From contig CAYGFH010000001.1 in assembly GCA_964349125.1 (NCBI GenBank), positions 133,408 to 197,407 of the forward strand: a DNA stretch of 64,000 bases. The letters run 5' to 3'. Each line of letters begins with the position of its first letter. Position 1 is the first letter of the stretch. Below are positions 1 through 64,000 of this stretch, one piece after another. The position numbers were made by a program, and so were the translations under genes. The DNA is from an uncultured Gammaproteobacteria bacterium (GTDB lineage Bacteria > Patescibacteriota > Microgenomatia > UBA10105 > UBA927). A model generated the notes under the pieces. That model had not been told where the DNA came from, did no database searches, and saw nothing but the letters and a program-made list of their open reading frames with translations.

Positions 1-36
1 CGAAACTTACATATGATGCCAAAAGTCTATACATGG

Positions 37-2322
37 TCATATTTTCTTTTTTGTACCTGAATTTTTTACTATAGTGATGAGAAAAAGGAGTAACCCGATA
101 CCTGTTACGATATACCCAGCCATCGTAAATTTGTGGGATTTGAGACGGATCGTGAAATGGTGTTTGGCAGTTCCCTCAAGTTGTGGTTTAATGAGCCACC
201 CGTTCGCGTATCCGTTTATCATGAAATGAGATTCTATAGGGGCTCCCTCATGTGATGTGAGCTCCCAGGATTCGTTATACGCGTCCTGAAAAGCAATAAT
301 AAACGGTTTACTGGGATTTTCTGGAACTACCGTGACTGCATACTCTACGGGTGATTTTCTGTCACTCGATACGGATGTACGGGTGACCTCGAATTTGCCC
401 GTGCAAAACACAGATGTCCTGCCATCCTCACACTGCTCTTCCCGTATAAATGCGACCTCTTTGTCAGCAACACTCTGAAACTGAGCACTTCCGGAGGCAA
501 TACTGGTCGGGGTGTATACCTGTCCATTTATGCGATCAGACGAAATTTTATACACGCTATGGTGCCCCTTTTCAAATACTTTTGTGACTGGTAATTTTTG
601 GATAAGTGCTTCATATGCAGCAATAGAGTTTGGCATTTGCGTCGATGCGTTTCTATATATTGGGTAATCGGGAAACAATTCCATTACTCTGGTGTCACTA
701 TTTATGTATATGTACTGAATATTGGTAACAGCAAACAATTGAAGAAGTAATTGCGTATCACCACTGTCAAAAGTGTTCTTGGCAATATCCTGTATACCTT
801 CAAAATTCCATAATCCTGCAAAATCACTGTGACCTGTAACCAGAGGTATCATGGAAGGCCCAAAATATGCGGACTTGTTATTATCCAACAGTACCTGCAT
901 ATAGTTTCCTGACAGTGGGAATGATACGGTTTTCGCATCTTGCGGAAGTGTTGAGATGAATCGTAATGAATCCACATAGTCAGGGTCCATATAGAATGCT
1001 TTTTTAATACCTGTAGAGTGTTCATGTACAGAATTTACCAGTACGCCACTGTACAGAGACATGCTCCTATATCCGATCAGTAAGAACAATGTAACGCAGA
1101 TACTTCCGTACAGATATTTTCGAACGGATTGAGATAGTACAAGGAGTGCTGTGTATAATGCCGCGCTATAAAAAAACGCGTACACGTACAGCCATTTTTC
1201 ATAAAAGGTCCTAAACATGAGAAATCCCGGTATAGTAAATAATTGTTCGTAGAATCTGACTCCAAACGGTGTAACGTGCGCAGTAACCAGATAGTAGGTC
1301 ACAAAGAAGAACGTTCCCGTTAGGAAAAATAGCATATTACTGGTTCTGATTCCGGCGAATAGTATGCAAAGAAATGCAAACAAAGCGGGAATATTCTCCC
1401 CTCTGAATCCTGCAGGAATAAGTATATTTGCGCTCGATGAGATATGTGAAAGATTATCCCTGTATGAACGGATGGCTAATGAATATGCAAACTCTGCATC
1501 AAACACCCTCGCGTTGCTGTAGCTCCCCTTTTGTAAAAGGTTTGCCAGTTGTGGAACTATATGGAATGAATGCACCAGCATTGCCAGAGCCACTAGGAGC
1601 AATATTTTTTTCATGGGGAAAGTTTTTTTCCCAGTCAGGAGCAAAATAGCGAGGATAAAGAGTACTGCTAATGGATAAAAACTGAAAAATTGCGGTGAGC
1701 TAGTAAAGGCGAAACTGGGTGCGAATATGACAGTGATAGCGACTGCGAGCAAACCGAAAAAAAGTTTCTCCGTATCCAGAAAACGATAGATACAGTACAA
1801 CACCATGGGATTTAAGAAAATCTGGTTGTGGGAAACCAGAGATTTATCCCATCCGAATTTTGATGTGGCAAGCAAATAGAATAGCCCACTGATTACTGAT
1901 GCAAACAGTGAACTGCGTTCTGTGCTCTTCGGAAAAAACTTTTTACTTATAAGATCAAACAGGAGTGATGTGAACAAAAACCCCAGTGACAGTTTTATGC
2001 CGTTAAAGAAACCCAGCACCAGAGTATCGGATCGAAAAAGTTGTTGGACAGCCCAAATAAACGCTGTATAGGGTATATAGTAGTGGCTTGGCTCTACCTG
2101 TCTGAATCCTTCAGGCCTGACAGGATACAGTGCATAGTTTTGCAGAAATTCTATGGGTTTAAAATAATACAGTCTTGTATCATCCCCACCATATGTCACC
2201 TGTCCGGGCAATAACCAGAAAAATGGAATCAAAAATAGTGCAAGTGAAATCATCAGGCGCAATGAACCCAACCGAATATCAGAAAGTGCTGACCATAGAG
2301 AATGTAGTATCCGGGAAATCAT
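37..2322 (-). CDS. Large polytopic membrane protein (about 760 aa). It has an N-terminal multi-TM region and a C-terminal roughly 330-aa soluble domain. Possible GT-C glycosyltransferase, distantly YfhO/DUF-like.
   Basis: ORF track 37..2427 (796 aa). I prefer the internal ATG at 2322 (MISRILHS...), which avoids a 100-bp overlap with the upstream gene ending at 2328. The N-terminus has many hydrophobic segments, and the C-terminal half is hydrophilic. No motif was recognised firmly. Confidence 0.55.
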   Translation of the reverse strand: MISRILHSLWSALSDIRLGSLRLMISLALFLIPFFWLLPGQVTYGGDDTRLYYFKPIEFLQNYALYPVRPEGFRQVEPSHYYIPYTAFIWAVQQLFRSDTLVLGFFNGIKLSLGFLFTSLLFDLISKKFFPKSTERSSLFASVISGLFYLLATSKFGWDKSLVSHNQIFLNPMVLYCIYRFLDTEKLFFGLLAVAITVIFAPSFAFTSSPQFFSFYPLAVLFILAILLLTGKKTFPMKKILLLVALAMLVHSFHIVPQLANLLQKGSYSNARVFDAEFAYSLAIRSYRDNLSHISSSANILIPAGFRGENIPALFAFLCILFAGIRTSNMLFFLTGTFFFVTYYLVTAHVTPFGVRFYEQLFTIPGFLMFRTFYEKWLYVYAFFYSAALYTALLVLSQSVRKYLYGSICVTLFLLIGYRSMSLYSGVLVNSVHEHSTGIKKAFYMDPDYVDSLRFISTLPQDAKTVSFPLSGNYMQVLLDNNKSAYFGPSMIPLVTGHSDFAGLWNFEGIQDIAKNTFDSGDTQLLLQLFAVTNIQYIYINSDTRVMELFPDYPIYRNASTQMPNSIAAYEALIQKLPVTKVFEKGHHSVYKISSDRINGQVYTPTSIASGSAQFQSVADKEVAFIREEQCEDGRTSVFCTGKFEVTRTSVSSDRKSPVEYAVTVVPENPSKPFIIAFQDAYNESWELTSHEGAPIESHFMINGYANGWLIKPQLEGTAKHHFTIRLKSHKFTMAGYIVTGIGLLLFLITIVKNSGTKKKI

Positions 2323-2327
2323 ATTTC

Positions 2328-3359
2328 TTATTTCAACCATGCGCCATATCCGCTTAAAATACGCCGGGCTTCGGAATATCCGTACGCGAATACCCCGAGT
2401 ATACAAACAAGTGGATGTAAAAACCATGCCATATCATGAACCTGCATATACCCGCGTACGCTCAGCAAAAAAGGTTGTATCATCGTGATCGAATACAATA
2501 TATATGCGAATAGATTTTTTTTATCTTCCGAGGAATTGGCATCATAAACCAGATACTGCCGTTTATCCGCTTTTCCGTCAAAATATCGCCTTTTATACTC
2601 AATTCTTCTACTGAAGTAATCCCAGAGACTTGATCCGGTGAAATGGATCACAGAATTTCGGACAACTGCATATCTGTTTTTATTCTTTCGCAACAATCGT
2701 ACAAATGCGTCTGTGTGTATATATTCATGAGGATTCTTATACGTGTGCTGAATCGCTGTTCTTCGAACCATATGCCCGTTGTCACCAAGAGTCGGTAAAT
2801 TTGCTCTGTTAAATTCCACAACACTGTAGCCGGCTGTATGTCTGATGATGTTTCCACGTGTGATTGTGGCGGTAAATTGTGGGAGCTTTTCAGATTTCTG
2901 CAGGTAGTATACTAACGGATCATTAATTCCAAAGAGTGCGCAATATCTGGTAAACATGGGCATATCAGGCTCAGCGTAATTGTGCATACTGTATGCAGCC
3001 ACTATTTTTTGATCATCGCAAAACGGTTGCACCATCTGCTTCAACCAAGAGTTTCCCACGATGATATTATCCGGCTCAAGAAGTAATACAAGATCATTTT
3101 TTGCGTACGAAATGCCTAAACCCATTCTGGAGAGAGGTTTGTCTAACAAATCCCGGCGTACATATACCCGTTTATGTTCCTTGCGAAGAATTTCATGTAT
3201 ACCATTGGTTGAACCGCCATCCATAATGATGTGCTCTATCTTTTGTTTGGGGTACTCCTGTACCCTGATTGCTGTCAACATTTTTTTCCATAGAGAAAGC
3301 GGCGTATTGTATGAGGTTGTAATTATGGAAACGGATGGAAGATTCATTTTTTTCGCCAC
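2328..3359 (-). CDS. Family 2 glycosyltransferase (GT-A fold).
   Basis: The N-terminus reads SVSIITTSYNTP...IIMDGGSTNG, a typical GT2 signature. Intact 343-aa ORF. Confidence 0.8.
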   Translation of the reverse strand: MAKKMNLPSVSIITTSYNTPLSLWKKMLTAIRVQEYPKQKIEHIIMDGGSTNGIHEILRKEHKRVYVRRDLLDKPLSRMGLGISYAKNDLVLLLEPDNIIVGNSWLKQMVQPFCDDQKIVAAYSMHNYAEPDMPMFTRYCALFGINDPLVYYLQKSEKLPQFTATITRGNIIRHTAGYSVVEFNRANLPTLGDNGHMVRRTAIQHTYKNPHEYIHTDAFVRLLRKNKNRYAVVRNSVIHFTGSSLWDYFSRRIEYKRRYFDGKADKRQYLVYDANSSEDKKNLFAYILYSITMIQPFLLSVRGYMQVHDMAWFLHPLVCILGVFAYGYSEARRILSGYGAWLK

Positions 3360-3430: not shown

Positions 3431-4597
3431 ATGAAAATCGCAAGATCAGTACTATATGTCAATTTTTCTCCATACGAAAACGCGGGGAATATTCTCGATT
3501 TTTTGAAAAAAAATTTTTCCACAGTGATATTATTTTCGTTTCAGTTTCATAAATTACACGATTCAAAGCATACAGATGTCTGTGTGGTCTATCAAAAAGG
3601 AGCTGAAATTGAGCGTATAAATCTATTTCGACCGCCTATCGCGACTTCGCTGACATTTTTTCTTCTCCCTGTTCGATCATGCATCATCATTTCACAGATT
3701 TTTATTCAGACATTGAGACTTCGGTCGCGGTATGGGCCATATGACATATTTTTTACGGTAAATGCGTTTACATCATGGACAGGAAATCTGCTAAAGAAGC
3801 TTGGAATAGTTAAGAAAACGCTCTTTTGGGTTTGGGATTACTATCCCCCTATACATACAGACATAGTCGCATCCGTAATGCGGAGAATATACTGGCAATT
3901 CGATAAGGTAGCAAGCAGCACTTCCACAAAAACGGTATTTCTCAATAAGCGTTTGGTTACACTTCGCAAAGAGATGGGGATAGTTCCTCCAAAAGCCGTC
4001 TATGAAATAATTCCCATAGGGACCAACCCGATAAAACTTTCGAAAAAGAAAAGAGATAAAACGCTTCGGTTAGCATTTTTCGGCGTGGTAAAAAAATCAC
4101 AAGGTCTGCAGTTATTCTTTTCATCCGTTGAAACGCTATTAACAATGTATCCTGATATCGAACTGCATGTCATTGGAGGCGGACCCGATAAGAAATACTT
4201 TGAGGATTTATCGAAAAAATACCCGATTAAAGCAAAATTTTACGGATACGTCACGGATGAGGTATATATGAAAAAAATAATCGGCGCATGTGATATTGGT
4301 CTTGCACCCTATGTGCCGGAAAAAAGCAATGTTTCCTATTATAGTGATCCTTCAAAGATTAAAGCATATATAAGTCTGGGAGTTCCGGTCATTACCACAA
4401 ATGTATTTACATTTTCACATGAGATAGAGAAAGCAAAGGCGGGCATAATAGTGAGCTATTTCAAACCGGCTGAGTTCATTGCTGGAGTGCGCACAATTAT
4501 GAAACATCTTACTTCATATCAGAATGCGGCATACACACTAAGCAAAAAATATAGGTATAATACCCTCTACAAACAATTATTTGCCGGTTTAGATTAA
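3431..4597 (+). CDS. Family 4-like glycosyltransferase (GT-B fold).
   Basis: The C-terminal half has a GT-B pattern (…HVIGGGPDKKYFEDL…GYVTDE…CDIGLAPYVP…), 388 aa. Confidence 0.75.
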   Translation: MKIARSVLYVNFSPYENAGNILDFLKKNFSTVILFSFQFHKLHDSKHTDVCVVYQKGAEIERINLFRPPIATSLTFFLLPVRSCIIISQIFIQTLRLRSRYGPYDIFFTVNAFTSWTGNLLKKLGIVKKTLFWVWDYYPPIHTDIVASVMRRIYWQFDKVASSTSTKTVFLNKRLVTLRKEMGIVPPKAVYEIIPIGTNPIKLSKKKRDKTLRLAFFGVVKKSQGLQLFFSSVETLLTMYPDIELHVIGGGPDKKYFEDLSKKYPIKAKFYGYVTDEVYMKKIIGACDIGLAPYVPEKSNVSYYSDPSKIKAYISLGVPVITTNVFTFSHEIEKAKAGIIVSYFKPAEFIAGVRTIMKHLTSYQNAAYTLSKKYRYNTLYKQLFAGLD

Positions 4598-4598: not shown

Positions 4599-5582
4599 AT
4601 GAGAGCATCAACAGTGAAAAAAGTTGCAATCACAGGAGCATCGGGTTTCCTCGGAAGTCACATGGTGCGGTTTTTGAAACAAAAAAAACTGTACGTTCGT
4701 GCGATACTGCGAAGCGCAAACGCGGACACAAAAAAACTGTATTCTCTGGCAGATGAGGTAAGAAGCTGCGACCTATCTGATGCAAAAAAGTGCGATCTCG
4801 TGTTTAAGGATATCGATCATGTGTATCATTTTGCTGCGGACATGGGTGGTGTAGGATATTTTTCGAAAGAACAGTATATTCCGTTTGTCAGTAATATGCA
4901 GATGGATCTCAACGTGATGGAGTCATGCAGGAAAAATGGCGTACGGCGATTATTTTATCCCTCCAGTGCCTGCGCATATCCGATTGATGCCGTGACTCGG
5001 TTCAAAAAGCGCGAGAAGTTGAGCGAGACTATGTTCGTGCCAGCCAACCCGGATCAGATGTACGGATGGGAAAAACTGGTTATGCTCATTGCATCGGAGT
5101 ACACACCGTTTGAAACGCGCGTAGGCGTACTCCATACTATTTTTGGCCCGGGACAACAGTGGGAAGGTAAACGAGCGAAATTCCCCCCGGCTATTGTGTA
5201 CAAGGTAATACAGTCGAAAATCAACAATACCCCTATACATATTTGGGGGAACGGCAAACAGGTACGGACATTTTTATATATCACCGATGCACTGGAAAAA
5301 ATATACAGAGTGATGAACAAAAAAGGATATTGGGGCCCGGTTAATATTTCAAGTGACGAACAGGTCACAATAAAACAGTGTGTAGAATGGCTATGCCAAT
5401 ACGCCGGAATTAAACCAAGGTATATCTATGAAACAGATAAACCGACTGGAGTGCTACTGAGGGGTGTTGATAATAAGAAATTCAATTCACACTATTCCTA
5501 TAGGAATAAGGTCACGACAAAAAAAGGGTTCACATTACTGTATGACACAATATATTCACAGGTAACAGACCGGGTAGTCTGA
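4599..5582 (+). CDS. NAD-dependent sugar-nucleotide epimerase of the extended SDR family, GDP-mannose 3,5-epimerase-like.
   Basis: Rossmann motif ITGASGFLGSH. The SSACAYP and YGWEK motifs resemble the GME/GalE family catalytic region. Confidence 0.75.
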   Translation: MRASTVKKVAITGASGFLGSHMVRFLKQKKLYVRAILRSANADTKKLYSLADEVRSCDLSDAKKCDLVFKDIDHVYHFAADMGGVGYFSKEQYIPFVSNMQMDLNVMESCRKNGVRRLFYPSSACAYPIDAVTRFKKREKLSETMFVPANPDQMYGWEKLVMLIASEYTPFETRVGVLHTIFGPGQQWEGKRAKFPPAIVYKVIQSKINNTPIHIWGNGKQVRTFLYITDALEKIYRVMNKKGYWGPVNISSDEQVTIKQCVEWLCQYAGIKPRYIYETDKPTGVLLRGVDNKKFNSHYSYRNKVTTKKGFTLLYDTIYSQVTDRVV

Positions 5583-18317: not shown

Positions 18318-18857
18318 TTACTGCGATATTGCGCGACTTACATCTTTTCTACTATTCTTTGATCCGGATATTAGTTCATGAATAGGTATATAAGATGCAT
18401 TCCCAACTTCAGGTTTCCATGTAAATTCTTTCGGAGTAACGAGTTGCATGGTGTTAAGTAGTGCGATATGAGTGTCAGCGGCACCCTGTATCAGCTGCAC
18501 CAGATCGTTTGGGTTCTTGCCGTTTGCCGAAACCGACCTGACAGAGTCTTTTAACCGGACAAAGTGGGCATCGCTTCTGGTGAGCGCATCCATGGCAAGC
18601 AGATATTGCTGGTATTCAAACAGGGTTTTTGCCTCAACAAGATATTTATCCGAAAGCTCCAGATGATACTTCGTCTGGGCGATATCACCTAAGTACCAAT
18701 ACTTCTTTAACGAATCCAATACTCGGGTCACAGCGTATACTTTGTTTCCCGGCATGGCTGATGGGTATGGAAGCATGTATGAGGCATACACACTCACTGG
18801 TCGAAAGAATACCCAATACAAAGCAATGACTATGTATACTGCCAGGTATTTCTTCAT
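18318..18857 (-). CDS. Small exported or membrane-anchored hypothetical protein, about 179 aa.
   Basis: Start at MKKYLAVYIVIALYWVFF (an N-terminal hydrophobic signal or anchor). The rest is hydrophilic and helical-looking. No recognisable family. Confidence 0.5.
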   Translation of the reverse strand: MKKYLAVYIVIALYWVFFRPVSVYASYMLPYPSAMPGNKVYAVTRVLDSLKKYWYLGDIAQTKYHLELSDKYLVEAKTLFEYQQYLLAMDALTRSDAHFVRLKDSVRSVSANGKNPNDLVQLIQGAADTHIALLNTMQLVTPKEFTWKPEVGNASYIPIHELISGSKNSRKDVSRAISQ

Positions 18858-33925: not shown

Positions 33926-33934
33926 TGCTCTCTG

Positions 33935-58385: not shown

Positions 58386-59342
58386 CTATACTCTCTCGCG
58401 CCAATAGTTGAGGAGATCTTCCATTGTTTGTTTGAATGGCACGTTTGGCTTCCATCCTGTTTTGGTGACAAATTTACTGTTATCACCCAGAAGCACTGGT
58501 ACATCGCTTGGTCTCATGCGCGCTGGATCCGGCTTTATCTCGACTTTCACTTTGGACATGGAGAGCAACATATCAAGCATATCTCCTATTTTGATTGTTG
58601 TTCCTGTGCATATATTGTACACGTCACCCGGATCACACTTCTCTACAGCCAACAAGTATGCTGCTACCATATCTCGTACGTCTGTGTAGTCCCGTGTCGC
58701 ATCGAGGTTTCCCACATGGATGATAGGTTCCTGCTTTCCCTTTTCGATCATGGCGATTTGCTTCGCAAAATTTGATTCTGCAAACGTATCTCCACGCCGT
58801 GGACCTGTGTGGTTGAATCCCCGTGTTCTGATAATTCGTTCTTTATAGGATTGGTAATACTGGTACCCCAGATAGTCCATCGCGACTTTTGATACCGCAT
58901 ATGGGCTCAAAGGTCGAAGTGGGTTTGTCTCTTTTATTGGCACTTCATTTTCATATACCATTCCATATTCTTCTGAAGAACAGGCAATTTGGATTACAGG
59001 ATCAATCCCGGCCATTCGCACTGCTTCAAACAAATTGGCGGATCCGACGATGTTTACCTCAAGGGTTACAGAAGGTGATACCCAGGATGTAGGCACAAAT
59101 GATTGTGCGGCCAAATGGAACACGTAATCCGGCTTTATGCGGGACATAGTTGAATACATACTGTGCGTATCCATAAGATCCGCATCTTCCAGGTGTAATT
59201 TGTTTATGATTGATTCAATATGATCAGTCTTACTGCGGGGACGAACAAATCCGTACACTTCATACCCTTTGGACAGCAAAAGCTCCGCGAGATGACTTCC
59301 AACAAATCCGGCTATACCACTGATAAATGCTTTTTTTTGCAT
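58386..59342 (-). CDS. NAD(P)-dependent sugar-nucleotide 4,6-dehydratase/reductase of the Gmd/Rmd family.
   Basis: ISGIAGFVGSHLAELLLSKGYEVYGFVR, HLAAQSFV and GNLDATRDYTDVRD motifs. A GGAGG SD lies 4 nt upstream of the ATG. Confidence 0.8.
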   Translation of the reverse strand: MQKKAFISGIAGFVGSHLAELLLSKGYEVYGFVRPRSKTDHIESIINKLHLEDADLMDTHSMYSTMSRIKPDYVFHLAAQSFVPTSWVSPSVTLEVNIVGSANLFEAVRMAGIDPVIQIACSSEEYGMVYENEVPIKETNPLRPLSPYAVSKVAMDYLGYQYYQSYKERIIRTRGFNHTGPRRGDTFAESNFAKQIAMIEKGKQEPIIHVGNLDATRDYTDVRDMVAAYLLAVEKCDPGDVYNICTGTTIKIGDMLDMLLSMSKVKVEIKPDPARMRPSDVPVLLGDNSKFVTKTGWKPNVPFKQTMEDLLNYWRERV

Positions 59343-59366: not shown

Positions 59367-60665
59367 TTACATCCGTCCTACACCATAATACACAAATCCG
59401 TGTTGTTTTACACGCGTAGGATCATACACATTTCTCCCGTCAAATAATACGGGATTCTTGCATTTCTTTGCAAGGGAAGATAAATCAAGCTGTCTGAATT
59501 CATTCCATTCTGTCACTACCGCGACCGCATCCGCGCCATCTGCAGCTTCATATGGATTAGTGGCAAATACCACTGATTCAGGTAATACGCGTTTTGAATT
59601 ATCCATTGCCACAGGATCGTACGCTACAACCGTTGCTCCCGCTTTTATGAGTGAATCTATGATAATTACGGATGGTGCATCGCGCATGTCATCCGTATTA
59701 GGCTTAAATGACAATCCCAGCACCGCAATCCGCTTGCCCTTCAGATTATTGTCAAAATGTGTGACTATCTTTTGAATGAAGTGCTCTGACGCCTGTTTAT
59801 TTACCTCGTCTACGGCTTTTAACAGAGTGAAATCATACCCATGTTCCCCAGCAATTGCGATAAGTGCTTTCACATCCTTCGGAAAACAGCTTCCGCCATA
59901 CCCAACACCGGGATATAGGAAACTTCTGCCAAGCCGTTTATCTAGACCCACGCCCTCGAGTACGTGTTCCACATCTGCACCCACCTTCTCGGCAATAAAC
60001 GCGATGGCGTTAGCAAATGATATTTTGGTTGATAAGAGAGAATTACTTGAGTATTTTATAAGTTCAGCGGTTTCGACATTTGTCAGTACTAATTTCCCTC
60101 CAATGGGTTTATGCAATTCCGAAAGTAAGTCTTTCGCTTTTTCGGATGTGGAACCTATCACTACGCGTTCCGGGTGGAGCGTGTCAGATATAGCTGTACC
60201 TTCCCGAAGGAACTCAGGTACAGAGGCGATATCAAATGTCGAGTCTGGTCGTTTGTTCGCCCGAAGGATCTCAGAAACTTTCTGATTAGTTCCGGGAGGA
60301 ACGGTACTTTTCGTTACAACAACTTTATATCCTGACAGTTCGGCAGCGATACTTTTTGCAGCCTCAAATACATTTGTGAGATTGGCTTCTCCGGTTGGCA
60401 TCGGAGGAGTTCCAACGCAAATAAACACGATGGAGGATGGGGTAACAGCGTCTTTATATGAAAGGGTAAAAATAAGCCTGCCAGCATCTACGTTTCGCTT
60501 CACAAGTTCAGCGAGTCCCGGCTCGAAAAACGGTGCGATTCCCTGTTTTAATTTTTCTATTTTTTCTTTTGTGCGTCCGACAACCCATACCGTATTTCCC
60601 AGATCGGCAAATACTGCTGCTGTAACCAAACCTACATATCCATGACCAACAAATGTTATAACCAT
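59367..60665 (-). CDS. ugd: UDP-glucose 6-dehydrogenase family (nucleotide-sugar dehydrogenase).
   Basis: N-terminal FVGHGYVGLVTAAVFADLGN Rossmann fold, the catalytic GGSCFPKDV motif, 432 aa. Confidence 0.9.
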   Translation of the reverse strand: MVITFVGHGYVGLVTAAVFADLGNTVWVVGRTKEKIEKLKQGIAPFFEPGLAELVKRNVDAGRLIFTLSYKDAVTPSSIVFICVGTPPMPTGEANLTNVFEAAKSIAAELSGYKVVVTKSTVPPGTNQKVSEILRANKRPDSTFDIASVPEFLREGTAISDTLHPERVVIGSTSEKAKDLLSELHKPIGGKLVLTNVETAELIKYSSNSLLSTKISFANAIAFIAEKVGADVEHVLEGVGLDKRLGRSFLYPGVGYGGSCFPKDVKALIAIAGEHGYDFTLLKAVDEVNKQASEHFIQKIVTHFDNNLKGKRIAVLGLSFKPNTDDMRDAPSVIIIDSLIKAGATVVAYDPVAMDNSKRVLPESVVFATNPYEAADGADAVAVVTEWNEFRQLDLSSLAKKCKNPVLFDGRNVYDPTRVKQHGFVYYGVGRM

Positions 60666-60737: not shown

Positions 60738-61604
60738 TTATGATTCCTGCGATTTCACTTCCTTGATTCCATCCAAAAACGAGCGTGGGGTGAATCCCAA
60801 TCGCTGAATTTTTTGCTGTGTCAAAACAGCATATTGTGGCGCGGGTGCCCGATCCTTAAACATTTGGGCAAATGTTGTCTTGTGAATCAAAGATTCGCTC
60901 AGTCCGAACACCTCTGCTATAGAGATAGCCGCTTCATACGGGGATATCGCAGTGGATGAAACCACGTGGTATATACCGCTGGCATTTTCCCTGACCAACA
61001 CATCCATAGCACGTGCCAAATCATCTATAAATGTCGGGACAAATTGCTGATCGTCAGGAGCGGTAATTTCCAACCCCTGCTGTAGCCTTTCAAGCATCTT
61101 ATGAACAAAGTCTTTTTTCCCTACCGGATGTGCTCTATAGGGATTCGATATTCTGATGATAAGTCCGTTTTCTCCAAGTGAACTGACGCGCTTGGCGCCC
61201 TCAGTCTTCGTAATTGCGTACCATCCGAGAGGATTTGTCGCTGCGTCTTCGTCATACGGTCCGTTTTTCCCATCAAACGCGTAATCAGTGTCTATATACA
61301 CGAGACGTTTGTTGAATTTTTTGCAATTTGCCACTATGTTTTCCGTTGCAAGGACATTCACTTTCCATGCTGCGCTGTTTTCTTGTAATTCACGTTCTTT
61401 TTCCGCTCCTTGTACATCGGTATAGGCTGCAAGGTGAAACACCCAAAGGGCATCGGATTTTTGGAAGTAAGAATCCACATCATCCTTCTTGGTAATGTCT
61501 ATACCGTTTTCCAGGCTCAGATTCTGAAACGTCATATGGTCACCCAACAGGGCGACAAGTCTGGTTCCTACGAGTCCCGAAAGGCCTGTTCCCAGTATAT
61601 TCAT
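60738..61604 (-). CDS. rfbD: dTDP-4-dehydrorhamnose reductase.
   Basis: 288 aa, N-terminal ILGTGLSGLVG, in the RmlD family. It is the last gene of an rml block and overlaps rfbB by 4 bp. Confidence 0.85.
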   Translation of the reverse strand: MNILGTGLSGLVGTRLVALLGDHMTFQNLSLENGIDITKKDDVDSYFQKSDALWVFHLAAYTDVQGAEKERELQENSAAWKVNVLATENIVANCKKFNKRLVYIDTDYAFDGKNGPYDEDAATNPLGWYAITKTEGAKRVSSLGENGLIIRISNPYRAHPVGKKDFVHKMLERLQQGLEITAPDDQQFVPTFIDDLARAMDVLVRENASGIYHVVSSTAISPYEAAISIAEVFGLSESLIHKTTFAQMFKDRAPAPQYAVLTQQKIQRLGFTPRSFLDGIKEVKSQES

Positions 61605-62617
61605 GTCGTACCTCCATACTGCTTTTTATAATATGACGCATATTCACCTGACTTAATCCTCTTCCACCATGATTCATGAGAGATAAACCAATCAATGGTG
61701 CGTGACAGATACGTATCAAAATCATGTTGTGGGGACCAGCCAAGCTCTGTGTGGATCTTCGTCCAATTCATGGCGTACCGCCTGTCATGTCCAGGTCTAT
61801 CCGTGACAAATTCAATACTGGACTCATCTTTTTTCATATAGGCAAGAATTTTGCGAACGAGGGTTATATTATCCACATCCTCTGTCATGCCGCCTATGCA
61901 ATATGTTTCTCCAATTGTGCCGTTTTGCAGTATGACATCTATTGCACGGCAATGATCCTCCACGTACAACCAATCACGGACATTTTTCCCGTCACCGTAT
62001 ACCGGAACTTTTTTTCCCTCTATGAGGTTTGTGATGGCAAGAGGGATTAATTTTTCTGGAAAATGAAACGGTCCGAAGTTGTTTGAGCAGTTCGTGATGG
62101 TAACAGGCAAACCGTAGGTGTGGTAATACGCCCGCACCAAATGATCCGACGCAGCCTTACTTGCCGAGTACGGACTTCTGGGATCATACGGAGTACTCTC
62201 TTGAAATTTATCCTGACTCTCAAGTGCAAGTGATCCGAATACCTCGTCTGTGGACACGTGGTGGAACCGTTTGACCTTGTGCCGCAAGGCCGCATCCAAG
62301 AGTACCTGTGTGCCTACCACATTGGTATGGATGAATGGAAACGGCTCCGCGATAGACCGGTCTACATGGCTTTCCGCAGCAAAATGCACGACTATATCCA
62401 CATCCTTCATTGCCAAATCCATAGCGGCGCTGTCTGTGATGTCAGCGTGCAGGAATCGATATTTTTCCAATGAAGATACAGTCTCCAAATTCTCCAGATT
62501 TCCGGCATAGGTGAGGGCATCCACATTTACTATTGAATCGTCAGGATGCGCTCCCATCCAGTAGAGAATGAAATTTGATCCGATAAACCCAGCGCCACCG
62601 GTAACAAGAAGCTTCAT
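61601..62617 (-). CDS. rfbB: dTDP-glucose 4,6-dehydratase.
   Basis: MKLLVTGGAGFIGSNF...VNVDALTYAGN...HVSTDEVFG...YSASKAASDHL is the RmlB signature. The ORF track start at 62662 is probably too early. Confidence 0.9.
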   Translation of the reverse strand: MKLLVTGGAGFIGSNFILYWMGAHPDDSIVNVDALTYAGNLENLETVSSLEKYRFLHADITDSAAMDLAMKDVDIVVHFAAESHVDRSIAEPFPFIHTNVVGTQVLLDAALRHKVKRFHHVSTDEVFGSLALESQDKFQESTPYDPRSPYSASKAASDHLVRAYYHTYGLPVTITNCSNNFGPFHFPEKLIPLAITNLIEGKKVPVYGDGKNVRDWLYVEDHCRAIDVILQNGTIGETYCIGGMTEDVDNITLVRKILAYMKKDESSIEFVTDRPGHDRRYAMNWTKIHTELGWSPQHDFDTYLSRTIDWFISHESWWKRIKSGEYASYYKKQYGGTT

Positions 62618-62619
62618 AG

Positions 62620-63096
62620 TTAGGTAATATTTGTATTGGTGATTGGCATACCATCCACCCAATCATACCCTATCTCAGCGTCATTGTAGGGAATTCTGCC
62701 TTCTTCATCTTTAGAATAAACGCCACTCGTTACGTACACTAAATCAGCAGGTCCTTTCATAACCTTCAGGCCATGTGCAACCCCAAACGGAATCTTGAGC
62801 ACCAAATTTGGTCCACTTTCGGTGTTTAACATGAACTCATTGGTTTCTTTATACGTTGGAGAATCCTTGCGTGCGTCATACACGACAGCCTTCACTACAC
62901 CCTGGGCGACATACCACCAGTCAATTTGAGTTTTGTGTATGTGCCATGCTTTCACCACACCCTGATGCATAAATGAGTGTGAAACCTGCGCGAACCCTTC
63001 GGCAAAAAATTCATCGGTTTTTCTGATCATTTCTTCGAAGTATCCCCGCTCGTCAGGATGGCGGACTAATTCTTTTATTTGGACACCGGCTATCAT
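62620..63096 (-). CDS. rfbC: dTDP-4-dehydrorhamnose 3,5-epimerase.
   Basis: 158 aa. HPDERGYFEE and WHIHK motifs in a cupin fold, as in RmlC. Confidence 0.85.
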   Translation of the reverse strand: MIAGVQIKELVRHPDERGYFEEMIRKTDEFFAEGFAQVSHSFMHQGVVKAWHIHKTQIDWWYVAQGVVKAVVYDARKDSPTYKETNEFMLNTESGPNLVLKIPFGVAHGLKVMKGPADLVYVTSGVYSKDEEGRIPYNDAEIGYDWVDGMPITNTNIT

Positions 63097-63830
63097 AGTT
63101 CCCCTTTCTTTACCTTTTGGGCGACATCATTATTGGCAAACAGCAATTCATCATATGATGTTCCAGCATCTACCCACCAATCGATTACCTGGCAAGACAG
63201 GGTTCCATCCTTGAGATAGCAGTTATTCAAATCTGTGACCTCAAGCTCCTGTCGGTCTGATGGTTTGAGTGTACGAATATACTCAAACACTTTACTGTCA
63301 TACATATATATACCCGTCTGGGCTATATCTGATTTTGGATTTTCCGGCTTCTCCTCGATGGAAAGCACTTTGCCGTCAGGACCCATTTCGATAACACCGT
63401 ACTGTTTGGAATCAGTATCACGATGTATGCCAAATATCATGGCGCCTTGTTTGGTCGAGTCCATTTTTTCAACAGCACTTCGAAGATCAAAATTAAAGAT
63501 ATTATCACCCAGAATCACCAGAATCGGCTCATCATGCGCGAATTCTTCGGCGAGAGCTATAGCCTGTGCTATTCCGCCTTTGGGATTTTTCTGGATCGCG
63601 TAATACAGCTTTAGGTTAAACGCTTCTCCAGCACCCAATAGGTTGGCAAAATGGCCAGCATGATCAGGCGCTGTGGATAACAGTACCTCTGTCACACCCG
63701 CTTTTTTCATAGCCTCGAGTGGATAGTAAATCATTGGCTTATGATATATAGGAAGTAAATGCTTGTTCGTAACGAGGGTAAGCGGCTGTAACCGCGTTGC
63801 CATACCTCCGGCTAAAATAACACCTTTCAT
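63093..63830 (-). CDS. rfbA: Glucose-1-phosphate thymidylyltransferase.
   Basis: MKGVILAGGMATRLQPLT...KHLLPIY, the RmlA N-terminus. A GGAGG SD lies 7 nt upstream of the ATG at 63830. The ORF track start at 63887 is too early. Confidence 0.9.
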   Translation of the reverse strand: MKGVILAGGMATRLQPLTLVTNKHLLPIYHKPMIYYPLEAMKKAGVTEVLLSTAPDHAGHFANLLGAGEAFNLKLYYAIQKNPKGGIAQAIALAEEFAHDEPILVILGDNIFNFDLRSAVEKMDSTKQGAMIFGIHRDTDSKQYGVIEMGPDGKVLSIEEKPENPKSDIAQTGIYMYDSKVFEYIRTLKPSDRQELEVTDLNNCYLKDGTLSCQVIDWWVDAGTSYDELLFANNDVAQKVKKGEL

Positions 63831-63849
63831 AACGTAACCTCCTCTTTCT

Positions 63850-64000
63850 TCATGACCGAATAATTGTAGCGAGTAGCACAATGGCAATTGCGCCTATGAG
63901 CAGATATTCTATCACAATTCGGCGGTGAATACTGCGCTCAAGGATATGATGGATAATCCCCCAAAAGACATAGGATATGGAGACAACTATTCCGATTGCC
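63850..64000 (-). CDS. 3' end of a membrane protein gene that continues beyond the window. Only the C-terminal 50 aa are visible.
   Basis: Open frame on the minus strand ending at the TGA (63850-63852). The translation AIGIVVSISYVFWGIIHHILERSIHRRIVIEYLLIGAIAIVLLATIIRS is hydrophobic. It sits directly upstream of rfbA. Confidence 0.35.
   Translation of the reverse strand, partial: AIGIVVSISYVFWGIIHHILERSIHRRIVIEYLLIGAIAIVLLATIIRS

What the first reader, a model, noticed from the sequence alone, without database searches (positions are those of the whole stretch)
1..64000. Hyper-expanded glycosylation super-cluster: about 40 of 52 genes are glycosyltransferases, about 20 of them GT-C membrane enzymes
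The window holds about 20 large polytopic candidate GT-C transferases from at least 5 families. It also holds about 13 GT2 enzymes, 4 GT4 enzymes, 2 Wzx flippases and sugar-nucleotide pathways. All are intact and tightly packed, with frequent 4-bp ATGA overlaps.

Known GT-C-rich loci, such as those for mycobacterial arabinogalactan/LAM, the Arn pathway, or YfhO/Gtr modification systems, contain far fewer such genes. The density suggests a multi-step, largely extracytoplasmic assembly or decoration of a surface glycoconjugate. That glycan could be a protein O-glycan, S-layer glycan or lipoglycan. Individual sugars would be delivered on polyprenol-phosphate carriers.

I did not recognise an initiating phosphoglycosyltransferase (WecA/WbaP type), a Wzy polymerase, a Wzz chain-length regulator or an ABC exporter. 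This argues against a classical O-antigen or capsule locus.
Basis: partly seen in the sequence, partly recalled or inferred. Interest (0 to 1): 0.85.

Follow-up and report, generated by a model that had tools for sequence, protein, structure and literature searches.

The report
Giant membrane-glycosyltransferase cluster in a CPR bacterium
A tiny-genome, uncultured bacterium of the Microgenomates group gives at least 74 kb (about 9% of its 809-kb contig) to one gene cluster with 21-25 membrane-embedded sugar-adding enzymes. These enzymes work on the outer face of the membrane, so the cell probably builds an unusually elaborate sugar coat that nobody has described.

Summary
The window has 51 complete genes, is 98.6% coding and has ten ATGA overlaps.

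- **Glycosyltransferases:** 38 of the 51 genes. These are 21 polytopic GT-C-type enzymes, 13 GT2 and 4 GT4.
- **GT-C groups:** PMT/PMT_2, PTPS_related, YfhO, GT87/MptA_B, and an AftD-like family with no Pfam model.
- **Other genes:** two Wzx flippases and pathways for dTDP-rhamnose, a 4-acetamido-dideoxyhexose and UDP-glucuronate.

Structure models of two GT-C proteins match only GT-C enzymes. Every GT-C family keeps an acidic motif just after its first membrane helix. Five GT2 proteins resemble polyprenyl-phosphate-sugar synthases.

No initiating phosphoglycosyltransferase, Wzy, Wzz, ABC exporter or LCP ligase was found in the window, within 10 kb on either side, or in 38 related loci.

The window comes from a Microgenomates (CPR) metagenome contig. 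The cluster runs at least 10 kb past window position 1. A syntenic core followed by a variable GT-C array recurs across Microgenomates genomes, and the paralogues are old (34% identity or less).

The best reading is a greatly expanded multi-component transmembrane glycosylation system that assembles an envelope glycan mostly outside the cell. The acceptor is unknown. I rate it a new variant of a known kind.

The parts
37..2340 (-). g01, a GT-C enzyme of the AftD-like family F, which has no Pfam model. GGDD motif after the first membrane helix.
   Evidence: No Pfam or NCBIfam hit. AF2 model pLDDT 80.7, pTM 0.81. Foldseek top hits are AftD (E 1e-9), then STT3 and PglB. The family has 898 representative clusters at E <= 1e-30.
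2328..3347 (-). g02, a GT2 with no close paralogue in the window.
   Evidence: Pfam Glycos_transf_2, 1e-11.
3431..4597 (+). g03, GT4.
   Evidence: Pfam Glycos_transf_1, 1e-12.
4599..5582 (+). g04, NAD-dependent sugar epimerase or reductase (SDR family).
   Evidence: Pfam Epimerase, 9e-37. Weak GDP-fucose-synthase-like hit in NCBIfam.
5584..6606 (-). g05, GT2 of the g05/g28/g35 subfamily.
   Evidence: Pfam, 6e-26. BLAST grouping.
6610..7701 (-). g06, DegT/DesI-like sugar 4-aminotransferase.
   Evidence: Pfam DegT_DnrJ_EryC1, 4e-97. Best NCBIfam hit is DesI, 1e-76, below the curated cutoff.
7707..8372 (-). g07, NeuD/PglB/VioB-type sugar N-acetyltransferase.
   Evidence: NCBIfam TIGR03570, 176 bits, above the 160.8 cutoff.
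8369..9232 (-). g08, GT2.
   Evidence: Pfam, 5e-23.
9238..10560 (-). g09, GT-C (PMT_2). FDE motif after the first membrane helix.
   Evidence: Pfam PMT_2, 6e-10. Motif.
10568..11698 (-). g10, GT4.
   Evidence: Pfam Glycos_transf_1, 4e-37.
11702..12493 (-). g11, GT2, DPMS/ArnC-like candidate polyprenyl-phosphate-sugar synthase.
   Evidence: Best NCBIfam hits are PgfS, ArnC and PpgS. Groups with g13, g38 and g43.
12480..13739 (-). g12, Wzx/MOP flippase (divergent).
   Evidence: Pfam Polysacc_synt_3, 3e-10, and Polysacc_synt, 6e-10, both above cutoff.
13742..14428 (-). g13, GT2, DPMS/ArnC-like catalytic domain with no membrane segment.
   Evidence: PDB 5mlz DPMS, 2e-24; ArnC, 4e-18.
14425..15468 (-). 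g14, GT4.
   Evidence: Pfam, 2e-22.
15472..17049 (-). g15, GT-C of family A (PTPS_related).
   Evidence: Pfam PTPS_related, 1e-9. D33 is conserved in 36 homologues.
17046..18194 (-). g16, GT-C of family E (GT87/MptA_B-like).
   Evidence: 30% identical over its full length to g42, E 5e-43. No direct Pfam hit.
18318..18887 (-). g17, small single-pass membrane protein of unknown function.
   Evidence: Only a weak DUF5667 hit, 1e-3.
18854..19648 (-). g18, GT2 of the g18/g34/g36 subfamily.
   Evidence: Pfam, 3e-21. BLAST grouping.
19618..21282 (-). g19, GT-C of family A (PTPS_related). This protein was modelled.
   Evidence: Pfam, 2e-13. AF2 pLDDT 87.4, pTM 0.90. The top 34 Foldseek PDB hits are all GT-C enzymes.
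21279..22868 (-). g20, GT-C of family D (weak PMT_2 hit).
   Evidence: Pfam PMT_2, 3e-4, below the gathering score. BLAST links to g44 and g29. D54 is conserved.
22878..24542 (-). g21, GT-C of family B (PMT-like, WDE motif).
   Evidence: Pfam PMT_2, 2e-5, below the gathering score. 34% identical to g27. D33-E34 is conserved in 54 homologues.
24539..26203 (-). g22, GT-C of family B.
   Evidence: Pfam PMT_2, 8e-4, below the gathering score. BLAST to g21 and g27, up to 2e-69.
26251..28779 (+). g23, GT-C of the YfhO family. The gene caller's version starts later and is 809 aa.
   Evidence: Pfam YfhO, 2e-20.
28763..30391 (+). g24, GT-C of family A (PTPS_related).
   Evidence: Pfam, 3e-8.
30378..32117 (+). 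g25, GT-C of family B.
   Evidence: Pfam PMT_2 is only 6e-3, but BLAST to g21 gives 4e-64. RDE motif.
32114..33832 (+). g26, GT-C (PMT_2), a distant member of family B.
   Evidence: Pfam, 2e-11.
33861..33927 (.). 14-nt tandem repeat (4.8 copies) in the gap between the convergent genes g26 and g27.
   Evidence: TRF. A near-identical strain from another sample has one copy fewer.
33935..35605 (-). g27, GT-C of family B (PMT/PMT_2).
   Evidence: Pfam PMT_2, 7e-10, and PMT, 9e-6.
35613..36638 (-). g28, GT2. Part of the conserved core.
   Evidence: Pfam, 5e-22. Syntenic in nearly all related loci.
36632..37966 (+). g29, GT-C of family D (PMT_2).
   Evidence: Pfam, 4e-8.
37963..38442 (-). g30, small soluble protein of unknown function. 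Not conserved at this position.
   Evidence: No family hit. The closest relative has other genes at this position.
38586..40814 (-). g31, GT-C of the YfhO family. Part of the conserved core.
   Evidence: Pfam YfhO, 1e-20. Homologues at 37-69% identity in 38 genomes.
40811..41875 (-). g32, GT4. Part of the conserved core.
   Evidence: Pfam, 5e-23. Synteny.
41856..44189 (-). g33, GT-C of the YfhO family. In the core of most relatives.
   Evidence: Pfam YfhO, 2e-15. Synteny.
44201..44968 (-). g34, GT2. Part of the conserved core.
   Evidence: Pfam, 2e-14.
44946..45866 (-). g35, GT2. Part of the conserved core.
   Evidence: Pfam, 8e-14.
45872..46774 (-). g36, GT2. Part of the conserved core.
   Evidence: Pfam, 1e-24.
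46777..48219 (-). g37, Wzx/MOP flippase. Part of the conserved core.
   Evidence: Pfam Polysacc_synt_3, 1e-52. NCBIfam MOP flippase, 3e-29.
48227..48961 (-). g38, GT2, DPMS-like. Part of the conserved core.
   Evidence: Pfam, 2e-19. Groups with g43, g11, g13 and g45.
48939..50621 (-). g39, GT-C of family A (PTPS_related). Sits at the edge of the core.
   Evidence: Pfam, 8e-8. Synteny.
50618..52174 (-). g40, GT-C of family A, divergent.
   Evidence: No Pfam hit. BLAST to g19 at 5e-52 and to g15 at 4e-42. TDD motif after the first membrane helix.
52215..53729 (-). g41, GT-C (PMT_2). TDE motif.
   Evidence: Pfam, 1e-9. Motif.
53787..54974 (-). g42, GT-C of family E (GT87/MptA_B).
   Evidence: Pfam GT87, 4e-4, below the gathering score. 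More than 1000 homologues; all 120 listed carry PF26314 and many also PF09594.
54940..55701 (-). g43, GT2, DPMS/ArnC-like.
   Evidence: Best NCBIfam hits are PgfS, 3e-20, and ArnC, 7e-17.
55703..57247 (-). g44, GT-C of family D (PMT_2).
   Evidence: Pfam, 6e-9.
57256..58371 (-). g45, polyprenyl-phosphate-hexose synthase: a GT2 domain fused to a GtrA/DPMS membrane domain.
   Evidence: Pfam GT2, 5e-27, plus GtrA_DPMS_TM, 3e-21. Full-length match to Pyrococcus DPMS 5mlz, 9e-43.
58386..59342 (-). g46, SDR-family sugar-nucleotide dehydratase or decarboxylase of uncertain specificity.
   Evidence: Pfam GDP_Man_Dehyd, 7e-84. All NCBIfam hits fall below the curated cutoffs.
59367..60665 (-). g47, UDP-glucose 6-dehydrogenase.
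   Evidence: Three UDPG_MGDP_dh Pfam domains. NCBIfam NDP-sugar dehydrogenase, 442 bits, above cutoff.
60738..61604 (-). g48, RmlD.
   Evidence: Pfam RmlD_sub_bind, 7e-55.
61601..62617 (-). g49, RmlB (dTDP-glucose 4,6-dehydratase).
   Evidence: NCBIfam TIGR01181, 476 bits, above the 365 cutoff.
62620..63096 (-). g50, RmlC (short, 158 aa).
   Evidence: Pfam dTDP_sugar_isom, 2e-26.
63093..63830 (-). g51, RmlA. Last gene of the cluster on this side.
   Evidence: Pfam NTP_transferase, 8e-58. Housekeeping genes follow.

Best explanation
This is the main cell-surface glycan factory of a Microgenomates (CPR/Patescibacteria) bacterium. It works as a greatly expanded multi-component transmembrane glycosylation system. 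The steps below are marked as shown or inferred.

1. **Activated sugars (shown by homology).** Cytoplasmic enzymes make dTDP-L-rhamnose (RmlABCD) and UDP-glucuronate (g47). They probably also make a dTDP-4-acetamido-4,6-dideoxyhexose, from RmlA/B plus the DesI-like aminotransferase g06 and the VioB-like acetyltransferase g07. Three further SDR-type modified sugars are possible.
2. **Lipid-linked oligosaccharides (inferred).** Eight ordinary GT2 and four GT4 enzymes assemble one or two oligosaccharides on a polyprenyl carrier at the inner face of the membrane. A phosphoglycosyltransferase encoded elsewhere in the genome provides the primer.
3. **Single-sugar donors (homology shown, substrates inferred).** Five DPMS/ArnC-like GT2 enzymes (g11, g13, g38, g43, g45) load single sugars onto polyprenyl phosphate.
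4. **Flipping (presence shown, substrates inferred).** The two Wzx/MOP flippases and the GtrA-like membrane domain of g45 move these lipid intermediates to the outer face.
5. **Extracytoplasmic transfer (fold and motif shown, chemistry inferred).** Twenty-one GT-C enzymes in the window, and probably two to four more just beyond it, transfer sugars from the polyprenyl-phosphate donors to the growing glycan. Each has its catalytic acidic motif in the first outer loop, and most carry a 120-335-residue C-terminal outer domain. With about five donors and more than twenty transferases, most GT-C enzymes must differ in acceptor or linkage rather than in donor, as in mycobacterial arabinan and mannan synthesis.

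A conserved core (GT-C, GT2, Wzx, three GT2, YfhO, GT4, YfhO, GT2) would make a common scaffold. The variable GT-C array would diversify it between lineages.

The most likely product is a complex envelope heteropolysaccharide or lipoglycan of a monoderm cell. Which molecule finally carries it is not known.
For: **Family and fold.**
- Pfam assigns 18 of the 21 polytopic proteins to GT-C-clan families. PTPS_related, PMT, PMT_2 and GT87 belong to Pfam clan CL0111 (PMC7801869). YfhO is treated as a GT-C enzyme in PMC5836110 and PMC8035078.
- The other three are linked by paralogy or by structure. The g01 model matches AftD, STT3 and PglB.
- The g19 model (pLDDT 87.4) has only GT-C enzymes among its top 34 PDB hits.

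**Catalytic hallmark.** Each family has a short K/R-rich N-terminus, a first membrane helix, and then a D, DE or DD motif. In the four families that had enough homologues (A, B, D and YfhO) the motif is conserved in at least 90% of them. This fits the extracellular-loop DxD-type motif named as typical for GT-C enzymes in PMC8035078.

**Donor synthases.** g45 aligns end to end with Pyrococcus DPMS (9e-43). g13 matches DPMS and ArnC. g11, g38 and g43 cluster with them.

**Flippases.** g12 and g37 are Wzx-type. Wzx-type flippases are accepted components of such systems, for example GacK (PMC8035078).

**Missing alternatives.** No PGT, Wzy, Wzz, ABC or LCP gene occurs in the window, its flanks or the relatives.

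**A real, inherited trait.**
- The same core order with variable GT-C arrays appears in 38 species-level genomes of Levy-, Roizman-, Woese- and other Microgenomates.
- GC content equals that of the housekeeping flank.
- Paralogues are at most 34% identical.
- Three independent assemblies are 99.9-100% identical to the window.
Against: - No enzyme here has been tested, and no sugar, linkage or acceptor is known.
- Five GT-C assignments (g20, g21, g22 and g25 on PMT_2; g42 on GT87) score below Pfam's gathering score. They depend on paralogue links and, for g42, on precomputed MptA_B annotation of its homologues.
- None of the 10 GT2 proteins scanned in NCBIfam reaches a curated cutoff, so their donors are guesses. 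g34, g35 and g38 were not scanned there.
- Four of the five DPMS-like proteins lack the membrane domain usual for such synthases. They could be ordinary soluble GT2 enzymes.
- No separate GtrA-type flippase is present.
- The initiating enzyme and the final ligase were not found, so the start and the end of the pathway are conjecture.
- Whether this organism makes its own polyprenyl phosphate was not checked.
- Three of the four polytopic genes just outside the window (x1, x3, x4) have no family assignment.
Confidence: 0.6

Rival explanations
1. The cluster is a general protein O-glycosylation system. PMT-like GT-C enzymes would attach the first sugar to Ser/Thr of secreted proteins such as pilins, S-layer proteins or adhesins, and the other GT-C enzymes would extend the chains outside the cell. 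The many paralogues would reflect protein-specific or site-specific transferases, as with eukaryotic PMT, TMTC and TMEM260.
For: - Ten of the 21 GT-C proteins hit PMT_2, and g27 also hits PMT itself.
- Family B, g09 and g41 carry the D-E pair after the first membrane helix that is typical of PMT-type enzymes.
- NCBIfam's second-best match for the Wzx g37 is an 'O-glycosylation flippase' model.
- Streptococcal GT-C enzymes glycosylate Ser/Thr-rich regions of membrane proteins (bioRxiv 10.1101/2024.05.05.592596, listed).
Against: - No MIR domain or other PMT accessory domain was detected.
- In characterised bacterial systems, PMT_2 hits are at least as typical of polysaccharide- or teichoic-acid-modifying enzymes such as GacL, CsdD, CsdF and GtsC (PMC8035078).
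- YfhO, GT87/MptA_B and AftD-like enzymes are known from polymer or lipoglycan synthesis.
- Twelve cytoplasmic glycosyltransferases plus Wzx fit a lipid-linked oligosaccharide better than stepwise protein mannosylation.
- No candidate acceptor protein is encoded in the cluster.
Confidence: 0.2
2. The locus is an ordinary Wzx/Wzy-dependent or ABC-dependent polysaccharide locus whose polymerase or exporter is too divergent to recognise. Most GT-C enzymes would merely be side-chain decorating modules of the Gtr type.
For: - Wzy polymerases are notoriously divergent.
- Three polytopic ORFs just outside the window (x1, x3, x4), and about 40 unassigned ORFs in the relatives, have no family.
- Two Wzx flippases are present.
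Against: - The two Wzy-sized membrane proteins in the window are not Wzy. g42 is GT87/MptA_B, with more than 1000 homologues whose listed members all carry that annotation, and g16 is 30% identical to it.
- No Wzy_C, Wzz, ABC or PGT hit appears in the window, in 10 kb on each side, or in the 66 unassigned ORFs scanned.
- GT-C genes outnumber cytoplasmic glycosyltransferases. That is the reverse of a decoration-only role.
Confidence: 0.1
3. The GT-C array is an interchangeable repertoire for surface variation, to evade phages or to switch hosts. Only a subset of the genes would be expressed at any time, so the product would be simpler than the gene count suggests.
For: - The array beyond the conserved core differs in content between related genomes.
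- GT-C proteins diverge faster than the neighbouring cytoplasmic GT2 proteins: 50-69% against 75-87% identity to the closest relative, with one exception, g29 at 81%.
- The closest relative carries a type IV restriction enzyme (GmrSD) inside the cluster.
Against: - No invertible elements, phase-variable homopolymer tracts or pseudogenes were seen. The only tandem repeat is intergenic, between convergent genes.
- Genes are translationally coupled in long same-strand runs with ATGA overlaps, which argues for co-expression.
- Paralogues are ancient and belong to different families rather than being cassette-like.
- Three assemblies are essentially identical.
Confidence: 0.1

Closest known systems
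Multi-component (three-component) transmembrane glycosylation systems: GtrA/GtrB/Gtr, CsbB-GtcA-YfhO, GacI/J/K/L, CsdAB/CD/EF
   Same: The parts list is the same: a GT2 polyprenyl-phosphate-sugar synthase, a GtrA- or Wzx-type flippase, and a polytopic GT-C enzyme (YfhO, PMT_2 or no Pfam domain) with an acidic motif in an outer loop (PMC8035078). The YfhO and PMT_2 families are shared. The link to rhamnose synthesis is shared with the streptococcal and lactococcal systems.
   Different: Known organisms have one to three GT-A/GT-C pairs, scattered in the genome, each adding one decorating sugar to a polymer made elsewhere. Here 21-25 GT-C genes sit in one cluster of at least 74 kb with only about five donor synthases. 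They outnumber the cytoplasmic transferases, so they probably build much of the glycan rather than merely decorate it.
Mycobacterial arabinogalactan and lipomannan/LAM assembly (EmbA/B/C, AftA-D, MptA/B/C, PimE with Ppm1 and DPA)
   Same: Many GT-C enzymes share one or two polyprenyl-phosphate donors and differ in acceptor and linkage. GT4 enzymes act first in the cytoplasm. GT87/MptA_B-type (g16, g42) and AftD-like (g01, x2) proteins are present.
   Different: The phylum is different, and the genome is about four times smaller. No decaprenyl-phospho-arabinose pathway gene was seen in the window. From my own knowledge, the mycobacterial genes are spread over several loci, with about six GT-C genes in the largest. 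The sequences are not orthologous: identity to AftD is about 12%.
Eukaryotic ER lipid-linked oligosaccharide pathway (ALG enzymes, DPM1/ALG5, Rft1)
   Same: The logic is the same: cytoplasmic GT4/GT2 steps, flipping by a MOP-type protein, then outer-face extension by several GT-C enzymes that use Dol-P-Man and Dol-P-Glc made by DPMS-type GT2 enzymes. ALG12 and STT3 are among the structural matches of g19.
   Different: No STT3/AglB/PglB-type oligosaccharyltransferase signature (WWD motif or STT3 Pfam hit) is present. The resemblance is one of design, not of demonstrated ancestry.

Membership tests
Multi-component transmembrane (three-component) glycosylation system | A GT-A/GT2 enzyme that makes a polyprenyl-phosphate-sugar donor. 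| tested here: met
   g45 matches DPMS 5mlz over its full length (9e-43), including the GtrA/DPMS membrane domain. g13 matches DPMS and ArnC. g11, g38 and g43 cluster with them. Enzyme activity was not tested.
Multi-component transmembrane (three-component) glycosylation system | A flippase of the GtrA or Wzx type. | tested here: met
   There are two Wzx/MOP proteins, g12 and g37, and a GtrA-like membrane domain in g45. There is no free-standing GtrA gene. Which substrate each one flips cannot be tested here.
Multi-component transmembrane (three-component) glycosylation system | A polytopic GT-C-fold transferase with a conserved acidic motif in an extracytoplasmic loop. | tested here: met
   21 candidates were found. 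HMM hits, two structure models and a conserved D, DE or DD after the first membrane helix in every family support them.
Multi-component transmembrane (three-component) glycosylation system | It acts on a pre-formed envelope polymer such as LTA, WTA, rhamnan or O-antigen. | not testable with these tools
   No acceptor can be read from the sequence.
Wzx/Wzy-dependent O-antigen or capsule locus | An initiating phosphoglycosyltransferase (WbaP/Bac_transf or WecA/Glycos_transf_4). | tested here: not met
   No such Pfam hit occurs in the 51 window genes, in the flanks, or in the 66 unassigned ORFs from the relatives and from beyond window position 1. One could still be encoded elsewhere in the genome.
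Wzx/Wzy-dependent O-antigen or capsule locus | A Wzy polymerase and a Wzz/PCP chain-length regulator. | tested here: not met
   There are no Wzy_C or Wzz hits. The Wzy-sized proteins g16 and g42 are GT87/MptA_B. x1 and x3, outside the window, remain unassigned.
Wzx/Wzy-dependent O-antigen or capsule locus | A Wzx flippase. | tested here: met
   g12 and g37.
ABC-transporter-dependent polysaccharide or teichoic acid locus | A Wzm/Wzt or TagGH-type ABC exporter. | tested here: not met
   The cluster has no ABC_tran or ABC2_membrane hits. The ABC/FtsX genes in the flank are the FtsEX cell-division pair, next to an M23 peptidase.
N-oligosaccharyltransferase (STT3/AglB/PglB) | An STT3 family match and the WWDxG catalytic motif. 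| tested here: not met
   There is no STT3 Pfam hit and no WWD motif in any protein. The resemblance to these enzymes is at fold level only.
Protein O-mannosyltransferase (PMT, GT39) | A PMT family match with the D-E pair in loop 1. | tested here: inconclusive
   g27 hits PMT (9e-6). The DE pair is present in family B, g09 and g41. Most hits are to PMT_2, which also covers enzymes that modify polysaccharides and lipid A.
Protein O-mannosyltransferase (PMT, GT39) | A lumenal MIR domain; Ser/Thr protein acceptors. | tested here: not met
   No MIR Pfam hit was found. Acceptors cannot be tested here.
Mycobacterial-type GT-C arabinan/mannan assembly | Several GT-C enzymes, including GT87/MptA-B and AftD/Emb types, that share polyprenyl-phosphate donors. 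| tested here: met
   g42 and g16 are GT87/MptA_B. The g01 model's best match is AftD. About 5 donor synthases serve at least 21 GT-C enzymes. This is a likeness in design only; identity to the mycobacterial enzymes is about 12%.
Mycobacterial-type GT-C arabinan/mannan assembly | A decaprenyl-phospho-arabinose pathway (UbiA-type transferase, DprE1/2). | tested here: not met
   No such Pfam families appear among the window genes.

The most novel reading that the evidence does not exclude
Microgenomates bacteria build their principal envelope polymer almost entirely on the outer face of the membrane. They do this with an assembly line of more than 20 GT-C enzymes, a bacterial counterpart of the ER-lumenal ALG pathway or of mycobacterial arabinogalactan synthesis. 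About 9% of a minimal genome is committed to it. It includes GT-C families absent from Pfam, such as the AftD-like g01 family with about 900 representative clusters. The resulting glycan would be a new class of cell-envelope polymer that mediates attachment to hosts or resistance to phages.
Probability: 0.3. Interest if true: 0.8.

Novelty: new variant of a known kind. Interest (0 to 1): 0.62.

Why it matters
CPR/Patescibacteria make up a large share of bacterial diversity. They have tiny genomes and are thought to live attached to other cells, yet the chemistry of their surface is essentially unknown. A genome of about 1 Mb that spends roughly a tenth of its coding capacity on one glycan-assembly cluster must depend heavily on that glycan.

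- **For glycobiology:** the locus is the densest collection of GT-C enzymes I know of. It is a natural library of more than 20 divergent polyprenyl-phosphate-dependent transferases, and at least one sizeable family in it has no Pfam model and no homologue carrying a Pfam annotation.
- **For CPR biology:** it gives concrete targets for asking what coats these cells and how the coat varies between lineages. The targets are the conserved core, the DPMS-like synthases, and the predicted rhamnose, uronic acid and acetamido-dideoxyhexose content.

Tried and rejected
- **Assembly artefact or recent tandem amplification.** Rejected. Three independent assemblies are 99.9-100% identical to the window. 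Paralogues are at most 34% identical. Synteny is conserved in 38 genomes.
- **Horizontally acquired island.** Not supported. GC is 0.448 in the window and 0.453 in the housekeeping flank, there are no tRNA genes, and no mobile-element family appeared in any scan. The lineage-wide synteny points the same way.
- **The large membrane proteins are transporters.** Rejected. For both modelled proteins, transporter folds appear only at Foldseek E > 0.02 with low probability, whereas GT-C hits have probability 1.0.
- **g16 and g42 as hidden Wzy polymerases.** Rejected.
- **A hidden N-oligosaccharyltransferase.** Rejected. There is no WWD motif and no STT3 hit.
- **Sequence searches of PDB** with g31 (YfhO), g19 (PTPS_related), g27 (family B) and the g01 family profile found no solved relative.
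- **NCBIfam** gave no name above a curated cutoff for any of the 10 GT2 proteins scanned or for any GT-C or unknown protein scanned.
- **Exact-protein look-ups** failed for g23 and for the long form of g01, because my ORF starts were longer than the called genes.
- **Eight literature searches** combining CPR, Patescibacteria or Microgenomates with glycosyltransferase, GT-C, mannosyltransferase, GT39 or GT83 found no description of such clusters. The one promising hit, PMC4381525, concerns glycosyl hydrolases.
- **Cluster look-up** gave no source names or accessions.

Full report
**What is in the window.** After removing shadow ORFs, the 64-kb window holds 51 complete genes plus two partial genes at its ends. 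The genes cover 98.6% of the bases. They lie in seven same-strand blocks, the longest with 18 and 22 genes, and ten same-strand junctions are ATGA overlaps. There are no tRNA genes and no compositional break.

**Family counts.** Pfam scans of all the proteins give:
- 13 GT2 enzymes;
- 4 GT4 enzymes;
- 2 Wzx/MOP flippases (g12, g37);
- 9 sugar-nucleotide enzymes;
- 2 small proteins of unknown function (g17, g30);
- 21 large polytopic membrane proteins.

**Are the 21 membrane proteins really GT-C enzymes?** Eighteen hit Pfam families of the GT-C clan at E <= 0.01: ten PMT_2 (g27 also hits PMT), four PTPS_related, three YfhO and one GT87. Five of these fall below Pfam's gathering score: g20, g21, g22 and g25 on PMT_2, and g42 on GT87. 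PTPS_related, PMT, PMT_2 and GT87 are listed as members of clan CL0111 in PMC7801869. YfhO is treated as a GT-C enzyme in PMC5836110 and PMC8035078.

All-against-all BLAST groups the proteins as follows:
- family A (PTPS_related): g15, g19, g24, g39 and the Pfam-negative g40;
- family B (PMT-like): g21, g22, g25, g27 and, more distantly, g26;
- YfhO: g23, g31, g33;
- family D (PMT_2): g20, g29, g44;
- family E: g16, g42;
- family F: g01 plus a gene just outside the window;
- singletons: g09 and g41.

This links the weakly scoring members to the well-scoring ones. g42 has more than 1000 homologues. All 120 listed carry the MptA_B-family annotation and many also GT87, so the two Wzy-sized proteins g16 and g42 are GT-C enzymes, not polymerases of the Wzy type.

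**Structure models.**
- *g01.* It has no Pfam or NCBIfam hit and no PDB sequence relative. With a 16-sequence alignment it gave a model with pLDDT 80.7 and pTM 0.81. Its only significant Foldseek matches in the PDB are mycobacterial AftD (E 1e-9), STT3 subunits and PglB.
- *g19.* I modelled it as a representative of family A with 40 sequences. The model has pLDDT 87.4 and pTM 0.90. Its top 34 PDB matches are all GT-C enzymes: AglB, AftD, PglB, ALG12, STT3, ArnT, Emb, AftA, Pmt and DPY19.
- In both searches, transporter folds appear only at non-significant scores.

**Catalytic hallmark.** Every family has a short, positively charged N-terminus, a first membrane helix, and then an acidic motif. 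In the four families that had enough homologues (A, B, D and YfhO), the motif is conserved in at least 90% of window paralogues and homologues from related genomes. The motifs are HD(G/D) in family A, WDE in family B, a D about 45 residues on in YfhO, GGDD in family F, and FDE or TDE in g09 and g41. This fits the outer-loop DxD-type motif named as typical of GT-C enzymes (PMC8035078). Most also carry a 120-335-residue non-membrane stretch near the C-terminus. In both models this stretch is a beta-rich domain followed by a final helix.

**The soluble partners.** The GT2 proteins fall into four groups.
- *g11, g13, g38, g43 and g45* resemble polyprenyl-phosphate-sugar synthases. g45 aligns end to end with Pyrococcus dolichol-phosphate-mannose synthase (5mlz, 9e-43) and carries the GtrA/DPMS membrane domain. 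g13 matches the DPMS and ArnC catalytic domains. For g11 and g43 the best NCBIfam hits are PgfS, ArnC and PpgS; for g13 and g45 the top hit is AglJ, followed by the same polyprenyl-phosphate synthases. None reaches a curated cutoff.
- *The other eight GT2 proteins* look like ordinary lipid-linked-oligosaccharide transferases.

Sugar-nucleotide genes:
- RmlA, RmlB (above cutoff), RmlC and RmlD;
- a UDP-glucose dehydrogenase;
- a DesI-like 4-aminotransferase next to a NeuD/PglB/VioB-type acetyltransferase (above cutoff);
- two SDR enzymes of unclear specificity.

I infer that the glycan contains rhamnose, a uronic acid and a 4-acetamido-4,6-dideoxyhexose.

**What is absent.** No phosphoglycosyltransferase, Wzy, Wzz, ABC exporter, LCP ligase, STT3-type enzyme or WWD motif was found in the window or in 10 kb on either side. 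None was found among 66 unassigned ORFs taken from related loci and from the region beyond position 1. The recognisable members of that set were again GT87, PMT_2, PMT and DUF2079.

**Origin and extent.** Exact-protein look-ups place the window, reversed, on an 809,328-bp contig of ENA metagenome assembly ERZ27247837. Copies that are 99.9-100% identical occur in another ENA assembly and in a Logan assembly, and the proteins also occur on an 840,518-bp NCBI contig.

On one side the cluster ends at RmlA (g51). One small ORF of unknown function follows, and then housekeeping genes: a CAP-domain protein, TsaD/TsaE/Sua5, VanZ, an M23 peptidase and FtsX.

On the other side the cluster continues beyond window position 1 for at least 10 kb. 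That stretch holds four more polytopic membrane genes (620, 722, 359 and 586 aa), two more SDR enzymes and GT4 genes. The 722-aa protein is a paralogue of g01 with the same GGDD motif. The cluster is therefore at least 74 kb, about 9% of the contig, and contains 21 confirmed and up to 25 GT-C-type genes.

**Relatives.** A scan of one genome per species found 38 loci encoding homologues of the YfhO protein g31 at 37-69% identity. All informative record titles name Microgenomates lineages: Levyibacteriota, Roizmanbacteria, Woesebacteria, Microgenomates group and Patescibacteria. Many third-party records carry the evidently wrong label 'uncultured Gammaproteobacteria'.

I annotated their ORFs against the window proteins. 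This shows a conserved syntenic core: family-A GT-C, DPMS-like GT2, Wzx, three GT2, YfhO, GT4, YfhO, GT2, and often another DPMS-like GT2. A GT-C array that differs in content between lineages follows the core. Each 22-kb locus has 4-9 recognisable GT-C genes plus further unassigned polytopic ORFs.

In the closest relative, the cytoplasmic GT2 and Wzx proteins are 75-87% identical to the window's proteins. The GT-C proteins are 50-69% identical, with one exception (g29, 81%).

The cluster is thus a vertically inherited, lineage-wide trait with a stable core and a faster-evolving periphery. It is not an artefact, an island or a recent amplification.

The scale and proportions are new. Characterised bacteria have one to three such GT-A/GT-C pairs, each adding a decorating sugar. 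Here more than 20 GT-C enzymes share about five donor synthases and outnumber the twelve ordinary cytoplasmic transferases.

I therefore propose the following steps, all inferred:
1. One or two lipid-linked oligosaccharides are started by an unlinked primer enzyme and built by the GT2 and GT4 enzymes.
2. They are flipped by Wzx.
3. They are then extended and branched outside the cell by the GT-C enzymes, which differ mainly in acceptor and linkage.

The closest analogies in design are mycobacterial arabinan and mannan assembly and the ER-lumenal ALG pathway. I found no evidence of orthology with either. The final carrier of the glycan (peptidoglycan-linked polymer, lipoglycan or protein) cannot be decided.

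**Rivals.**
- *Protein O-glycosylation* is the main rival. It is favoured by the PMT-like DE motifs. It is disfavoured by the YfhO, GT87 and AftD-like members, by the lack of MIR domains and by the large cytoplasmic GT set.
- *A conventional Wzy or ABC locus with an unrecognised polymerase* remains possible only through the unassigned ORFs outside the window.
- *A variable-expression repertoire* is not supported by the tight operon structure.

**Novelty.** Eight full-text searches found no description of GT-C-rich clusters in CPR bacteria. That library misses much subscription literature, so this is only absence of evidence.

All components belong to known superfamilies and the mechanism is a known one. 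The organisation, scale and host are new, so I rate it a new variant of a known kind.

One by-product may be of independent use. The g01/x2 family is AftD-like in fold and has no Pfam hit in this search or in the precomputed annotations of its homologues. A profile search finds 898 representative clusters at E <= 1e-30 and 3203 at E <= 1e-10.

Noticed in passing
window 33861-33927: A 14-nt tandem repeat (TTTGTGATTTGGGA, 4.8 copies) lies in the 102-bp gap between the convergent GT-C genes g26 and g27. A copy from another sample (L004) has exactly one repeat unit fewer and no other difference in the 17.4 kb compared.
   Followed up: partly
window 37-2340 (g01) and L047:14199-16367 (x2): These belong to a polytopic protein family with no Pfam or NCBIfam model and no PDB sequence relative, but with an AftD/STT3-like predicted fold and an invariant GGD..R motif after the first membrane helix. 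A profile search finds 898 representative clusters at E <= 1e-30, many about 1200 aa long. This is a sizeable unannotated GT-C family.
   Followed up: partly
L047:12307-14169, 16337-17416 and 17471-19231 (just beyond window position 1): Three further membrane proteins of the cluster (620 aa with about 12 membrane helices, 359 aa, 586 aa) have no family assignment. The 586-aa protein has a weak hit to an MmpA 'trehalose lipid delivery' model (4e-9, far below cutoff). They could not be modelled because they lie outside the window.
   Followed up: partly
L008:12312-13913: In the closest related genome, a GmrSD-type (type IV) restriction endonuclease gene sits inside the glycosylation cluster, in the slot occupied by the unknown gene g30 in the window.
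   Followed up: no
L008-L045 record titles: Many third-party MAG records holding this Microgenomates-type locus are titled 'uncultured Gammaproteobacteria bacterium'. Their gene content and nearest named relatives (Levyibacteriota, Roizmanbacteria, Woesebacteria) indicate a mislabel.
   Followed up: no
window 57256-58455 (g45): One assembly's gene call for g45 (350 aa) starts inside the GT2 domain. The alignment to DPMS 5mlz begins upstream of that start, so the 371-aa call from the other assembly (start at 58371) or the 399-aa ORF is more likely correct. Several other ORF starts in the window (g01, g23, g32, g44) are likewise ambiguous.
   Followed up: partly
window 62620-63096 (g50): The RmlC homologue is short (158 aa) and scores well below the NCBIfam cutoff (77 against 156 bits). 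It also gives an odd weak hit to Polysacc_synt_C.
   Followed up: no
L001:4602-4877 and L002:4065-4370 (flank beyond window end): The TsaD-family gene next to TsaE and Sua5 is called at only 91-101 aa, far shorter than a normal TsaD or TsaB. It may be truncated or a remnant.
   Followed up: no
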